Below are positions 34,301 through 37,300 of a stretch of 64,000 nucleotides of DNA, in pieces (the stretch's first letter is position 1; each line of letters begins with the position of its first letter). A program made the position numbers. The DNA comes from Candidatus Enterousia sp. GTDB taxonomy: Bacteria; Pseudomonadota; Alphaproteobacteria; Rs-D84. The DNA lies in the NCBI GenBank assembly GCA_045614145.1, contig JAZLCH010000008.1, positions 47,351 to 111,350 of the forward strand, in the 5' to 3' direction.

Positions 34301-37300
34301 TTATACATGTATTCTGGTGTACTGTAAAATTTAACCTTACTCTTAAACTTAAACAACGCCTTACCCGGAATTTTACTTAACATTCGCGCATCCATTATGG
34401 ATATATCTGGACTGGCCATATTAGTATGACTATTAGTCAGAATATCCAAACGAAATTTCGGATGCGCCGCATAAAATCTGGATAATTCTGTCAACAAACC
34501 ACTGCCTGAAAACCCTTCTTCTGTCCAAATAGACAAAAAACCCGTCAACTCATCAGGTTCCGTCAAATTATGTAGTAAATTATCCAACGCATCTGAAATC
34601 ACCTCTATATCGGAATACAGCTGACGCGTTGTATTTGTTGGCACACTGCCCGCCGAACTACGAATCAGCAACGTTGTTTTAAAACGTCCCTCTAAATCTG
34701 ATATCATCTTAGATAAATTAGAATGTTTTATACCATTTCTTTCAGCTGCAGCCTGGATTTGACCAATATCTATAACCTCTTTTAACGCCAACAATTCACG
34801 CAAAAACGCCACTTTAGTCTTAATCGTCGCCATCTTACACCCCTTTTTAATACATAATACACATAAAAAAAGGAATTTGCACCAACATTTCTTCAAAAAA
34901 CAAAGGAAAAAATACCCATATCCCTAAAAAAAAAGAATTCATAACCCACAAAAAAAATACACAGAATCCTAGCCCCATAAGCAACACAAAAAGTCTACTG
35001 CCTATTTTTATACACAGAACAAAATATTTTTAGCATAAAAAGAAATATAAAAACCTATTTTATAATATCTAACGTGGCAAAACGAAACAATAACCAAAAG
35101 GATAAAAAAATGACACATAACGAAGTTTGGAATGCGATTGACCGATTCGCACACGCGCACAAAATGACATGTTCTGGTCTGGCGAAATACAGCGGTCTGG
35201 ACCCAACAACATTTAACAAAAGCAAGCGCTATTCTAAATACGGCCAGCCACGTTGGCCATCAACCGGCAGCATTGCCAAAATACTGTCCGCAACAGGCTG
35301 CAATATAAATGACTTTTTGGAATTTTATCGTTCCGTAGATTTAACCGCCGACCGATAATTTTCAAAATAACGGGCCGCCATGGCCCGTTTTATTTTTGGG
35401 AAAAGACGCATATTGCCGCCGCCCCGCTGTAAAATGTATTATGCAGGCGTCCGGACAAAACCCAAAAACATAAACAAAGGAAATAAAAATGTCAAAATCA
35501 GGAAACAAAAGCTGCAAATGTAAAAACTGTTCAAACATGAACAACGACATGTGCGATAAAAAAGCCAGCTGCAATAAAAAAGACTGCAACAAATAACCAT
35601 CCCCGCCATCTGGCGGGTTTTTCAAGATATTTGAATCGGAATACATTCCCTGCCCCCCGCGCCGAAAGCATAAATAAATAAAAATGCAAGTAGGAATAAA
35701 AACTTTTTATACTTGAATATTTAAATTTGTGTGATACGAATTAAGTCATAGGAAAGATTTTTTGTTTAAATCATAAAAAAGGAGTGGCTATGTCCAATAA
35801 CAAACACTTTGCGGACCTGTTGAAAGTCTGCAGTATTTTGCCAGCCTTGGCGATTATGCCGGCAATGGCAGAGGTTCCAGCTGTATCTGAGGTTGGGGTT
35901 GTAACAGGTAGTGGTTCTGGGGAAGTGTTGACACAGGCGATGTATTTTAATCCAGAAAAAGATATAATTTTTGAAAATGCTTTTTTTTCTGGGAATAAGA
36001 ACACCAATATATCTGGAAATGAAGCGTTTGGAACGGTTGTTTTTTCTAATGTTGACTCGACTTTAGCCTTTAACAATGTTAAATTTGAGAATAATGAGAA
36101 TGCGTATGTTGGTGGTGCAATTGCAAATTTTAAAGAGGCTATGTTTGTTGTAAATAATTCAAAATTTATTGGAAATCATGCCCATTATGACGGTGGTGCA
36201 ATTGGGAATTATGGTGGTTTGGTAATCAAAGATTCTTTGTTTGAAGGAAATACCGCTGATTATGATTATAATGAAGAAACAAAAGATTGGTCAATTGTTG
36301 TAGAAGATTCGACAGCGATTGGTGGTGGTGCGATTTCATTGGGGTCTATATCGCAAACGACCGTTGGTTCTATATTAGGGACAACTTTTAAAAATAATAA
36401 ATCTGGGACATATGGTGGTGCAATTGGTACGCGTTTTGCGCAGAAGAACAGTAATGCTGCTAAGTTAGATATTGAGGCAACGTTTGTTGGTAATGAGGCC
36501 CTTAAAGATGGTGGTGCCATTTATAATACTTTTTATGAAGATAATGGGTTAAGCAAGGGGAATGGTGTTACAGTTGCGGGTGTCTTTGAAAACAATAAAG
36601 CTGGCCGTTATGGTGGTGCAATCTATAATGATGGGCGTCATGATATAAATGGCAAGGGTGGTGTTATGACGATTAACACATCTGTTTTTGAAGATAATCA
36701 GGCGAATTTAGCAAATGGTTACGGCGGTGCTGTCTTTAATTACTATGGTGATATGACAATTCAGGGCACTGCAGACAAGCGTGTTGTGTTTGAAGATAAT
36801 ATAGCTTATGTTGGTGGGGCTTTCTCGGATATGCAGGTGACAAAAGATTATCCAGGTTTGGTGTCTAAAACAACAATTAAGCATGCGTTATTTGAAGAAA
36901 ATCATACAACAGCTGACGCAGGTGCTGCGGGTTTCTTTGGTGATGTTGATATAGAAGATGTTATTTTCCGTGAAAATACCGCTGCGATTGATTTTGATGG
37001 TAAAAAGGCATTGTTGAATGAATCTGATGGCGGTGGTGCGGTTCAGGTTGGTGGAACAGCAAATGTGACAATGAAGGATGTCATATTTGTTGAAAATGAA
37101 TCTGGTGCACGTGGTGGTGCGATTTCTGCGCGTCATGGAACTAAGTATACCCTGGATATTGATACGGCCGTATTTACAGCGAACAAGTCTGGTAATTATG
37201 GTGGTGGTATCGCCAATGTTTATGGTGGCGCAGTTGATATGAAAGATGTTCAGTTTGTATCAAATGTTGCAGCCAAGGCAGGTGGTGCAATCTATAATGG

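What the first reader, a model, noticed from the sequence alone, without database searches (positions are those of the whole stretch)
35489..35596. Unannotated metallothionein-like micro-gene
Seen: a 35-codon ORF MSKSGNKSCKCKNCSNMNNDMCDKKASCNKKDCNK with 6 Cys (CxCxxC-x7-C-x5-C-x4-C), many Lys/Asn and no aromatic residues. It has a strong RBS (AAAGGA), a TTGCCG..TATTAT promoter-like site upstream and its own terminator, so it is a complete monocistronic unit below the ORF-track cutoff. Known: this composition typifies metallothioneins, which are poorly catalogued in Alphaproteobacteria. Inference: a Zn/Cu/Cd-binding or redox peptide.
Basis: partly seen in the sequence, partly recalled or inferred. 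Interest (0 to 1): 0.65.

Follow-up and report, generated by a model that had tools for sequence, protein, structure and literature searches.

The report
Clade-specific cysteine-rich 35-residue micro-protein gene
The 35-codon reading frame is a real gene with its own promoter and terminator, inherited within one clade of tiny-genome gut bacteria (Candidatus Enterousia); it encodes a lysine-rich peptide that keeps at least four cysteine/histidine ligands and most likely binds a metal such as zinc, but it belongs to no known metallothionein or zinc-finger family and nothing has been tested at the bench.

Summary
ORF 35489-35596 (+) exists as described. A 34-37-codon counterpart occurs once per genome in about a third of Candidatus Enterousia species (82 of 301 order genomes, 1 of 29 genera). 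Each copy has the same promoter, a GTCCGGAC palindrome at the likely start site, an A-rich leader, a GGA ribosome-binding site and its own terminator.

It is protein-coding. dN/dS is 0.23 in this frame against 0.8-1.4 in the other sense frames. Cys11 and Cys14 are invariant while their codons switch between TGT and TGC. The transcript body has no conserved RNA structure.

The family is an orphan. It has no Pfam, NCBIfam, PHROG, PADLOC or PDB relative and no distant hit among 1.84 billion representatives.

Only CxxC is invariant. Further Cys/His positions shift, yet 49 of 50 variants keep at least 4 Cys. The C-terminal half is a C-[DN]-K-K repeat.

Best reading: an abundant cytosolic metal-thiolate micro-protein with one tetrahedral site, possibly two, most likely for Zn. 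It would be metallothionein-like in how it works but is not a member of any metallothionein family.

Leader-peptide, RiPP, bL36-substitute and sRNA readings were tested and disfavoured.

The parts
35388..35404 (+). T-tract plus GGGAAAA block upstream of the -35 hexamer (consensus TTTTTTTGGGAAAAcAC.C.TA). It looks like an UP element. In this window its T-run is also the tail of the upstream gene's terminator.
   Evidence: Conserved at 90% or more in the alignment of 32 distinct upstream regions. The pattern GGGAAAA-N40-46-GTCCGGAC occurs exactly once in each of 56 of 257 genus genomes and once in this genome. The UP-element function is inferred.
35413..35418 (+). -35 hexamer TTGCCG (family consensus TTGTCg)
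   Evidence: Consensus scan; conserved position and sequence across relatives.
35437..35442 (+). -10 hexamer TATTAT (family TATTAT or TATCAT), 17-18 nt after the -35
   Evidence: The spacer sequence varies while its length is kept.
35449..35456 (+). Invariant palindrome GTCCGGAC, 6-7 nt after the -10. It is the probable transcription start or initial transcribed sequence, or an operator.
   Evidence: Invariant in all 32 aligned loci. It occurs only 5 times in the genome against about 7 expected, and no other copy has this promoter context. Its function is not established.
35457..35488 (+). A/C-rich, G-poor 5' leader with ribosome-binding site AAAGGA (35476-35481), 7 nt before the ATG
   Evidence: the GGA core and its spacing are conserved. 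No conserved secondary structure.
35489..35596 (+). Coding sequence of the 35-residue Cys/Lys-rich micro-protein (stop TAA at 35594-35596)
   Evidence: 50 distinct orthologous peptides, dN/dS 0.23, invariant C11/C14 with synonymous TGT/TGC switching.
35602..35622 (+). Intrinsic terminator (6-bp G+C stem, 4-nt loop, TTTTT)
   Evidence: Every one of 32 relatives has a G+C-rich hairpin (-11 to -21 kcal/mol) just after the stop, with a different sequence in each; most but not all are followed by a T-run.
33801..33877 (-). tRNA-Pro(GGG), the conserved positional anchor of the module
   Evidence: In relatives the module lies about 50 nt from this tRNA, between it and acpS. Genomes without the gene have tRNA-Pro directly followed by the acpS promoter.
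33931..35358 (.). LysR-type regulator (33931-34896, -) and an 82-94-aa Cro/C1-type HTH protein (35074 or 35110 to 35358, +). This is a secondary insertion between the tRNA and the module, not part of the unit.
   Evidence: Pfam hits. The pair is present in only 7 of 34 orthologous loci.

Best explanation
The locus is a self-contained, probably strongly expressed gene for a 35-residue cytoplasmic micro-protein. The peptide has no hydrophobic core, so its only plausible way to fold is around a metal.

The invariant Cys11-x2-Cys14 knuckle plus at least two further thiolate or imidazole ligands, drawn from Cys9, His18, Cys22, Cys28 and Cys33, would form one tetrahedral site. In the 5-6-Cys copies such as this one, two metals might share bridging thiolates. 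The metal is most likely Zn(II); Cu(I), Cd(II), Co or Ni are not excluded. The conserved lysines next to each cysteine (K-C-K-N-C, then C-[DN]-K-K three times) would offset the negative charge of the thiolate centre.

I favour the metal being cargo, that is a metallothionein-like buffer or store, over the metal being a scaffold for a binding surface. The reasons are that ligand positions drift, the C-terminal half is a short tandem repeat, and no non-polar surface is conserved.

Shown: the gene is real, protein-coding, vertically inherited, and always keeps a CxxC plus further ligands. Inferred: transcription level, translation, metal binding, the identity of the metal, and the buffering role.
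For: Gene and expression signals:
- The promoter (T-tract/GGGAAAA, TTGTCg, 17 nt, TATYAT), GTCCGGAC, the A-rich leader, the GGA site, ATG and stop are conserved in 32 distinct loci, and a G+C-rich hairpin follows the stop in all 32 (mostly with a T-run).
- One copy per genome in 82 of 301 genomes of the order; the promoter pattern occurs once in each of 56 of 257 genus genomes.

Coding:
- dN/dS 0.23 against 0.8-1.4 in the other sense frames; third-position entropy about twice that of positions 1 and 2.
- Cys11 is TGC 24 / TGT 27 and Cys14 is TGT 38 / TGC 13, with 100% Cys at both.
- No conserved RNA structure in the transcript body.

Metal-ligand logic:
- 50 distinct peptides carry 3-6 Cys; 49 of 50 have at least 4, and all have Cys+His of at least 4.
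- Cys9 is present in 10 of 11 variants lacking Cys22 but in only 10 of 39 with it (Fisher 1.5e-4, not corrected for phylogeny).
- Aliphatic plus aromatic residues total under 2%; GRAVY -1.49.
- The N-terminal half resembles the linker plus CxxC knuckle of C2H2 fingers (TGEKPyKCkeCGK) in a PDB profile search, a local likeness only.

Inheritance and context:
- Presence follows the AcpS tree: 2 changes needed, 0 of 500 label shuffles as low.
- The genus has no Fur/Zur-family regulator (0 of 257 over cut-off) and almost no HMA-domain protein (1 of 257), so canonical handling of thiophilic metals is missing.
Against:
- Cys-motif proteins do not always bind zinc. In Haloferax volcanii only 9 of 14 purified C(P)XCG micro-proteins did (PMC11241148).
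- The at-least-4-Cys floor is only marginally better than column shuffles (P = 0.065), and the C9/C22 pattern may reflect a single clade.
- The AlphaFold2 model is weak (mean pLDDT 66) and has no Foldseek neighbour.
- There is no linked metal sensor, transporter or chaperone. The lack of Fur and HMA proteins is genus-wide, so it does not track the gene.
- Two thirds of the genus does without the gene.
- One metal per peptide is a poor store unless the peptide is very abundant, and that abundance is only inferred from promoter features.
Confidence: 0.55

Rival explanations
1. It is a zinc-knuckle adaptor. The metal is only structural, and the folded, lysine-rich micro-protein binds a macromolecular partner (ribosome, RNA polymerase, nucleic acid or an enzyme), as zinc-finger micro-proteins of archaea are thought to do.
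For: - The CKNC[S/G] knuckle is invariant, and nine Lys positions (3, 7, 10, 12, 24, 25, 30, 31, 35) are conserved.
- There is a local likeness to the C2H2 linker plus knuckle.
- The net charge is positive (pI 9.2).
- The strong promoter would suit an abundant accessory factor.
Against: - The positions of the third and fourth ligands are not fixed, unlike in folded zinc fingers.
- There is only one CxxC knuckle rather than two.
- No aromatic or hydrophobic contact residues are conserved.
- The gene has no conserved neighbour that could be a partner, because the downstream side is variable.
- It does not replace ribosomal protein bL36, which the genome encodes at C5:33931-34050.
Confidence: 0.2
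2. It is a translated micro-protein whose cysteines serve a role other than metal binding. Examples are a thiol redox buffer, a persulfide carrier, a disulfide-stapled cationic peptide released from the cell, or a RiPP precursor.
For: - Cationic, Cys-rich peptides of 30-40 residues include defensin-like and SCIFF-type peptides (general knowledge).
Against: - The peptide has no signal peptide or any hydrophobic stretch.
- There is no SPASM-domain maturase in the genome.
- The seven radical-SAM genes all lie far from the locus.
- There is no conserved neighbour gene and no PHROG or PADLOC hit.
Confidence: 0.12
3. It is not a protein gene. The conserved unit would be a small RNA, a transcription-attenuating leader for the ancestral downstream gene acpS, or the antisense ORF 35362-35646.
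For: - The unit is short, has its own promoter and terminator, and ancestrally sits just upstream of acpS on the same strand.
- Frames are easily open in this A-rich strand.
- One antisense frame also shows low dN/dS (0.29), though that frame shares third positions with the sense frame, so this is expected.
Against: - The signal has codon periodicity, and invariant Cys positions switch synonymous codons.
- The ATG and ribosome-binding site are conserved at fixed spacing.
- RNAalifold finds no conserved pairing in the transcript body, and there is no Rfam hit.
- acpS keeps its own promoter whether or not the module is present.
- The module stays intact where it has been separated from acpS, as in this window.
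- Antisense frames carry stops in 6-10 of 32 loci and have no conserved start.
Confidence: 0.06

Closest known systems
Bacterial metallothioneins of the SmtA/BmtA type (Pfam PF02069), including Pseudomonas PflQ2MT
   Same: They are small, cytosolic, Cys/His-rich, aromatic-poor peptides that exist to hold Zn or Cd. SmtA is itself built around a zinc-finger-like site (PMC10612145).
   Different: - There is no sequence match.
- SmtA-type proteins are roughly 55-80 residues with about 9-10 Cys plus His, bind 3-4 Zn in one cluster, and have a folded core (PMC10612145).
- This family has 34-37 residues and 3-6 Cys, enough for one or at most two metals.
- Known bacterial metallothionein genes are controlled by metal sensors such as SmtB or Zur (general knowledge; PMC10612145 for SynZur). 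No sensor is linked here, and the genus has no Fur family at all.
MymT of Mycobacterium tuberculosis and Hpn of Helicobacter pylori, lineage-restricted small metal-binding peptides (from general knowledge, not tested here)
   Same: They are short, low-complexity, lineage-specific peptides that were overlooked by annotation and whose role is to bind a metal (Cu(I) for MymT, Ni for Hpn). They are the best analogy for an orphan, clade-specific metal peptide.
   Different: The sequences, ligand sets and metals are unrelated. Both were shown experimentally to bind metal and to be metal-induced; nothing of that kind is known here.
Zinc-finger micro-proteins of Haloferax volcanii with C(P)XCG motifs (HVO_2753, HVO_0758)
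   Same: They are under 70 residues, have little beyond the metal site, and are often basic. Function is predicted from Cys motifs alone (PMC11241148, PMC10716476).
   Different: Those proteins carry two C(P)XCG knuckles at fixed spacing. This family has one CxxC plus isolated, shifting cysteines. There is no homology. The Haloferax work also warns that 5 of 14 such proteins held no zinc (PMC11241148).
Linker plus first knuckle of eukaryotic C2H2 zinc fingers (TGEKPYKCKECGK), e.g. ZNF568 (PDB 5v3m)
   Same: Residues 1-16 (MSKSENKSGKCKNCSN) align with it repeatedly in the PDB profile search and in three eukaryotic zinc-finger proteins from the representative library. This suggests a CxxC knuckle turn.
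   Different: The match covers 13-16 residues only. Its significance comes from summing many repeats in the target. The His-His half of the finger and its hydrophobic core are absent. This is a convergent local motif, not homology.
Ribosomal protein bL36 (RpmJ, PF00444)
   Same: Length is similar (37-41 against 35 residues), both are basic, and Zn-type bL36 has CxxC at the same residues 11 and 14 (E. coli CRNC, from memory).
   Different: There is no profile match and no beta-strand hydrophobic pattern. The genome has its own Cys-less bL36 at C5:33931-34050. The small gene is absent from two thirds of the genus, which does not fit a core ribosomal role.

Membership tests
Metallothionein (operational definition) | Low molecular mass (below about 10 kDa) | tested here: met
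   35 residues, 3.9 kDa; the family ranges from 33 to 37 residues.
Metallothionein (operational definition) | High cysteine content (commonly about 15-30%) in CxC, CxxC or CC motifs | tested here: inconclusive
   The window copy has 6 of 35 (17%) with CxCxxC. The family mean is 13.8%, and the commonest count is 4 Cys (11%) with only the CxxC motif invariant.
Metallothionein (operational definition) | Few or no aromatic residues | tested here: met
   Y 0.3%, F 0.1% and W in a single variant across 50 peptides.
Metallothionein (operational definition) | High metal content in metal-thiolate clusters with characteristic spectroscopy | not testable with these tools
   This needs purified or synthetic peptide. 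With 4-6 ligands, at most 1-2 metals are conceivable.
Known metallothionein sequence families (e.g. Pfam PF02069 Metallothio_Pro, PF00131) | Profile match to the family | tested here: not met
   No Pfam-A family at E <= 10 for four family members, none relevant in NCBIfam, and no distant relative among 1.84 billion representatives.
Known bacterial metallothionein systems (smtA-smtB, bmtA-Zur, CadR-controlled MT) | Linked or genome-encoded metal-sensing regulator controlling the gene | tested here: not met
   - The neighbours are tRNA-Pro and acpS, or variable genes.
- The LysR/HTH pair occurs in only 7 of 34 loci.
- No Fur/Zur family in 257 genus genomes.
- The 17-18-nt promoter spacer is not MerR-like.
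- ArsR/SmtB and CsoR families were not searched.
- GTCCGGAC could be an operator, but no regulator is known for it.
C(P)XCG zinc-finger micro-proteins | Two C(P)XCG-type knuckles providing four Cys at fixed spacing | tested here: not met
   There is one CxxC (CKNC followed by S or G). The other ligands are single Cys/His at shifting positions.
C(P)XCG zinc-finger micro-proteins | Binds one Zn(II) tetrahedrally | not testable with these tools
   The AlphaFold2 model has low confidence (pLDDT 66). AlphaFold2 is reported not to predict this geometry reliably (PMC11241148).
Ribosomal protein bL36 | Match to PF00444 and presence as the genome's only copy | tested here: not met
   No match. A separate full-length rpmJ lies at G000 C5:33931-34050.
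SCIFF/ranthipeptide-type RiPP precursor | Adjacent or genome-encoded radical-SAM/SPASM maturase | tested here: not met
   No SPASM domain in the genome. The seven radical-SAM genes are all distant. There is no conserved neighbour.
Leader peptide / transcription attenuator | Alternative RNA structures overlapping the ORF and a fixed downstream regulated gene | tested here: not met
   No conserved pairing. The downstream gene differs among loci, and acpS has its own promoter.

The most novel reading that the evidence does not exclude
This is a new, independently arisen prokaryotic metallothionein-type family. A roughly 250-bp promoter-ORF-terminator module either appeared between tRNA-Pro and acpS in an ancestor of part of Candidatus Enterousia or was present earlier and lost in one subclade. 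It has since been kept as an abundant 35-residue thiolate peptide. It would then be the main cytosolic buffer for Zn, Cu or Cd in bacteria that have no Fur/Zur sensor and no HMA-type exporter or chaperone. It would also be the smallest bacterial metallothionein-like protein known and a clean case of a young gene taking over metal homeostasis in a minimal genome.
Probability: 0.2. Interest if true: 0.6.

Novelty: new variant of a known kind. Interest (0 to 1): 0.4.

Why it matters
- Micro-proteins under 50 residues are routinely missed by annotation. This one is absent from the ORF track and from most public gene calls; the exact sequence is not in a collection of 15 billion proteins. Yet it is among the best-conserved non-coding-looking stretches of its neighbourhood.
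- If the peptide binds metal, it gives a minimal, chemically synthesisable model of a single-site thiolate peptide. It would also give a first handle on how an uncultured, host- or partner-dependent gut bacterium with no Fur/Zur and no HMA proteins deals with thiophilic metals.
- It is a well-delimited example of a young, lineage-specific gene. The boundaries of the roughly 250-bp module can be read directly from genomes with and without it.
- If the peptide does not bind metal, it is still a conserved orphan gene whose role is unknown.

Tried and rejected
- Pfam, NCBIfam, PHROGs and PADLOC gave nothing. tblastn against phage and plasmid collections gave nothing. A literature search for the peptide motifs gave nothing.
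- The profile search of 1.84 billion representatives found only the family itself plus eukaryotic C2H2 repeat proteins.
- The AlphaFold2 model had pLDDT 66 and no Foldseek match in the PDB, so it was not used as evidence.
- Substitute for a lost zinc-type bL36: rejected. rpmJ is present, in a Cys-less form.
- GTCCGGAC as a regulon operator: there are 5 copies in the genome against about 7 expected. The others lie in RNase P RNA, at the trmD-rplS junction and inside genes, so there is no regulon.
- The promoter architecture is not shared with any other gene of the genome. Sigma-54 and sigma-32 readings of the GGGAAAA block were considered by eye and do not fit the spacing.
- Conserved mRNA structure or sRNA: none.
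- Antisense 94-aa ORF 35362-35646: an artefact of composition.
- Paralogues or other hydrophilic Cys-rich small ORFs in this genome: a crude scan found none besides ferredoxin and bL32.
- Phyletic link to loss of Fur/Zur or HMA proteins: both are missing genus-wide, so they say nothing about this gene.
- Functional link to the LysR/HTH pair: rejected, because the pair is present in a minority of loci.
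Full report
**1. The observation**

The window sequence and the ORF list show ATG at 35489 and TAA at 35594-35596. The product is MSKSGNKSCKCKNCSNMNNDMCDKKASCNKKDCNK.
- It has six Cys at positions 9, 11, 14, 22, 28 and 33, nine Lys, seven Asn, and no aromatic residue.
- Calculated mass is 3.9 kDa, pI 9.2 and GRAVY -1.49.

- AAAGGA at 35476-35481.
- TTGCCG at 35413-35418, then 18 nt, then TATTAT at 35437-35442.
- A G+C hairpin with a T-run at 35602-35622.
- The upstream HTH gene has its own terminator at 35369-35389, so the unit stands alone.

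One caution applies. The strand is 47-51% A, so stop codons are rare. Other frames are also open in most relatives: sense +1 in 25 of 32 and antisense frames in 22-26 of 32. An open 35-codon frame here proves nothing by itself.

**2. Conservation shows a real, protein-coding gene**

Distribution:
- A search of 60 relatives found full-length matches in same-genus genomes.
- A profile built from 14 of them (A1) found exactly one copy in each of 82 of 301 genomes of the order, all in one of 29 genera.
- Record titles identify these as Candidatus Enterousia and unnamed alphaproteobacterial MAGs from deer, yak, goat, sheep and buffalo gut. This is a lineage with genomes under 1 Mb and a probably partner-dependent lifestyle (PMC12306168).

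Coding signal across 26 distinct 35-codon alleles:
- Entropy at the third codon position is 1.06, against 0.62 and 0.54 at positions 1 and 2.
- dN/dS is 0.23 in the proposed frame, against 1.41 and 0.79 in the other sense frames.
- One antisense frame also scores 0.29. That is expected for the frame that shares third positions. It has stops in 6 of 32 loci and no conserved start.

Cys codons across 51 distinct coding sequences:
- Cys11 is encoded by TGC 24 times and TGT 27 times.
- Cys14 is TGT 38 and TGC 13.
- The last Cys is TGT 25 and TGC 26.
- The amino acid never changes at positions 11 and 14.

RNA evidence:
- RNAalifold finds no conserved pairing in the transcript body, and Rfam has no match.
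- In all 32 loci a G+C-rich hairpin follows the stop, mostly with a T-run. Its sequence differs from species to species. A hairpin is thus kept at this position while its sequence changes.

**3. Anatomy of the unit**

The aligned upstream regions give this layout:
- TTTTTTTGGGAAAAcAC.C.TATTGtc
- 17 variable nt
- TAT(T/C)AT
- 6-7 nt
- GTCCGGACA
- a 25-40-nt A/C-rich leader
- aAAGGA
- 6-8 nt
- ATG

My reading of each element:
- I read it as a sigma-70 promoter.
- The T-tract plus GGGAAAA block looks like an UP element; that is inference.
- The invariant palindrome sits where transcription should start.
- The palindrome is not a regulon operator. It occurs 5 times in the genome against about 7 expected, and the other copies lie in RNase P RNA, at the trmD-rplS junction and inside genes.
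- The promoter layout is unique in the genome.
- The pattern GGGAAAA-N40-46-GTCCGGAC occurs exactly once in each of 56 of 257 genus genomes, with almost no hits for the reversed control.
- What the palindrome does is open. It could be a dedicated operator, an initial transcribed sequence, or a feature of the mRNA 5' end.

**4. Genomic setting and history**

- The side towards tRNA-Pro(GGG) (33801-33877, minus strand) is conserved. The far side is not.
- In many relatives the order is tRNA-Pro, about 50 nt, the module, then the acpS promoter (GCTTGCACGAATCGG...) and acpS.
- Of eight near-complete genomes without the gene, seven have tRNA-Pro followed directly by that same acpS promoter and acpS. 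The whole roughly 250-bp module is therefore a presence/absence character.
- On a tree of the neighbouring AcpS protein, presence needs only two changes, and none of 500 label shuffles did as well. The gene is inherited vertically and is absent from one subclade. The tree rests on one short protein, so gain and loss cannot be separated.
- In this window a LysR regulator and a small Cro/C1-type HTH gene have been inserted between the tRNA and the module. A Pmp-type autotransporter has replaced acpS downstream.
- The LysR/HTH pair occurs in only 7 of 34 loci. It is therefore not part of the unit.
- There are no phage, plasmid, PHROG or PADLOC matches.

**5. What the peptide looks like across the family**

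Fifty distinct peptides of 33-37 residues were collected. Their consensus is MSKxENKxGKCKNCSxxHDxxC[DN]KKxxC[DN]KKxC[DN]K.
- Composition: K 26.5%, C 13.8%, N 10.8%, S 10.1%, D 8.6%. V, L, I, F and Y together are under 2%.
- Invariant positions: M1, K7, C11, K12, C14 and K24.
- Cys frequencies at other positions: C33 94%, C22 78%, C28 50%, C9 40%. His18 is in 62%.
- Cys counts: 3 in one variant, 4 in 20, 5 in 17 and 6 in 12. Cys+His is at least 4 in every variant.
- Ten of the 11 variants lacking C22 carry C9, against 10 of 39 that have C22 (Fisher 1.5e-4). These variants may form one clade, so the test overstates independence.
- The at-least-4-Cys floor beats column shuffles only marginally (P = 0.065).
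- The C-terminal half is a short tandem repeat, C-[DN]-K-K-x(1-2), present up to three times. In some species it is near-perfect at the DNA level (for example ...TGCGACAAGAAAAAC TGTGACAAAAAAAAT TGTGATAAA in L014).

**6. Mechanism**

- A 35-residue chain with no hydrophobic residues cannot fold on its own.
- An invariant CxxC turn plus at least two more thiolate or imidazole donors is the minimum for a tetrahedral metal site. Flanking lysines would neutralise the charge of the thiolates.
- I therefore take the peptide to be a metal-thiolate binder. Zn(II) is the default guess. Five- and six-ligand copies such as this one might hold two metals through bridging thiolates.
- Two roles are possible: cargo (metallothionein-like buffer or store) or scaffold (zinc-knuckle adaptor).
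- I lean towards cargo for four reasons: the drifting ligand positions, the repeat-built C-terminus, the lack of any conserved non-polar surface, and the apparently strong promoter with an unstructured A-rich leader.
- The genus has no Fur/Zur-family regulator (0 of 257 over cut-off). It has an HMA-domain protein in only 1 of 257 genomes. This genome has no CPC-type P-type ATPase (motif scan).
- So there is room for an unconventional buffer. These absences hold equally for species without the gene, so they are context, not evidence.
- Everything from "is transcribed" onwards is inference.
- The Haloferax work is a direct warning: only 9 of 14 purified Cys-motif micro-proteins held zinc, and AlphaFold2 did not predict which (PMC11241148).
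- The model made here was weak (pLDDT 66) and had no structural neighbour.

**7. Rivals**

- Zinc-knuckle adaptor: cannot be excluded (probability 0.2).
- Non-metal thiol chemistry or an exported or modified peptide: disfavoured (0.12). There is no signal peptide, no SPASM maturase, no nearby radical-SAM gene and no conserved neighbour.
- Non-coding RNA, acpS leader or the antisense ORF: contradicted by the codon-level signal, the lack of RNA structure, acpS's own promoter, and survival of the module away from acpS (0.06).
- Substitute for zinc-type bL36: prompted by the shared CxxC at residues 11-14 and rejected, because rpmJ is present.

**8. Comparison with what is known**

- No profile in Pfam, NCBIfam, PHROGs or PADLOC matches. 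No PDB chain matches beyond a 13-16-residue likeness to the C2H2 linker plus knuckle.
- A profile search of 1.84 billion representative proteins found 13 members of this same family, and otherwise only three long repeat proteins, identified by sequence as eukaryotic C2H2 zinc-finger proteins.
- Public sources call members "hypothetical protein" at most, and this exact sequence is not in the collection.
- In how it probably works, it is closest to bacterial metallothioneins and to lineage-specific metal peptides such as MymT and Hpn (general knowledge).
- By membership it fails the sequence test for every metallothionein family and lacks a linked sensor. Its Cys content is borderline.
- It also fails the two-knuckle definition of C(P)XCG zinc-finger micro-proteins.
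- It is best filed as a new, orphan family within the broad kind "small Cys-rich metal-binding peptides".

**9. Verdict**

The family is restricted to part of one genus. Interest is moderate. It is a clean, previously undescribed micro-protein family and a tidy case of a young gene, but function rests on inference and the organism is uncultured.

Noticed in passing
window 35449-35456, and the same position in L002-L106: The palindrome GTCCGGAC is invariant 6-7 nt after the -10 hexamer in every orthologous locus, although it is not enriched in the genome. Its role (operator, start-site context or mRNA 5' end) is unexplained.
   Followed up: partly
window 33801-35358; L002; L107-L114: The tRNA-Pro(GGG)/acpS junction is a hotspot for change. 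Depending on the species it holds nothing, the micro-gene module, a LysR plus HTH pair (this window), or a duplicated tRNA-Pro with an extra ORF between the copies (L002).
   Followed up: partly
G000 C5:33931-34050 (outside the window): Ribosomal protein bL36 of this genus has no cysteine (MKFLSSLKAWKKRGNVKQIRRGKQVILIDPDNPKFKAKQG). It scores 21-25 bits, below the Pfam cut-off of 26.1. Other genera of the order score 26-49 bits.
   Followed up: partly
whole genus (257 genomes): No Fur/Zur-family regulator passes the cut-off in any of the 257 genomes, and an HMA (heavy-metal-associated) domain occurs in only one. This genome also has no CPC-type P-type ATPase. How these bacteria sense and export transition metals is unclear.
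   Followed up: partly
window 35362-35646 (-): A 94-codon antisense ORF overlaps the whole unit and shows apparent similarity in some relatives. It is an artefact of the A-rich sense strand: relatives carry stops, and there is no conserved start.
   Followed up: yes
L006, L008, L013, L018, L037, L108-L114: The acpS promoter region (tttatGCTTGCACGAATCGG ... TATTAGTAT) is highly conserved across the genus, whether or not the micro-gene precedes it.
   Followed up: no
window 31459-32343 (-): A CorA-family divalent-metal transporter gene is the conserved neighbour two to three genes upstream of the micro-gene. It is also present in the same place in the loci examined from species that have the micro-gene; the loci fetched from species without it were too short to show this. 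It was treated as positional coincidence.
   Followed up: partly
window 35784-38936 (+): An autotransporter with Chlamydia-type Pmp repeats lies directly downstream in this genome (an orthologous stretch also appears in L028, there on the opposite strand). In most other loci the downstream gene is acpS or another gene.
   Followed up: no
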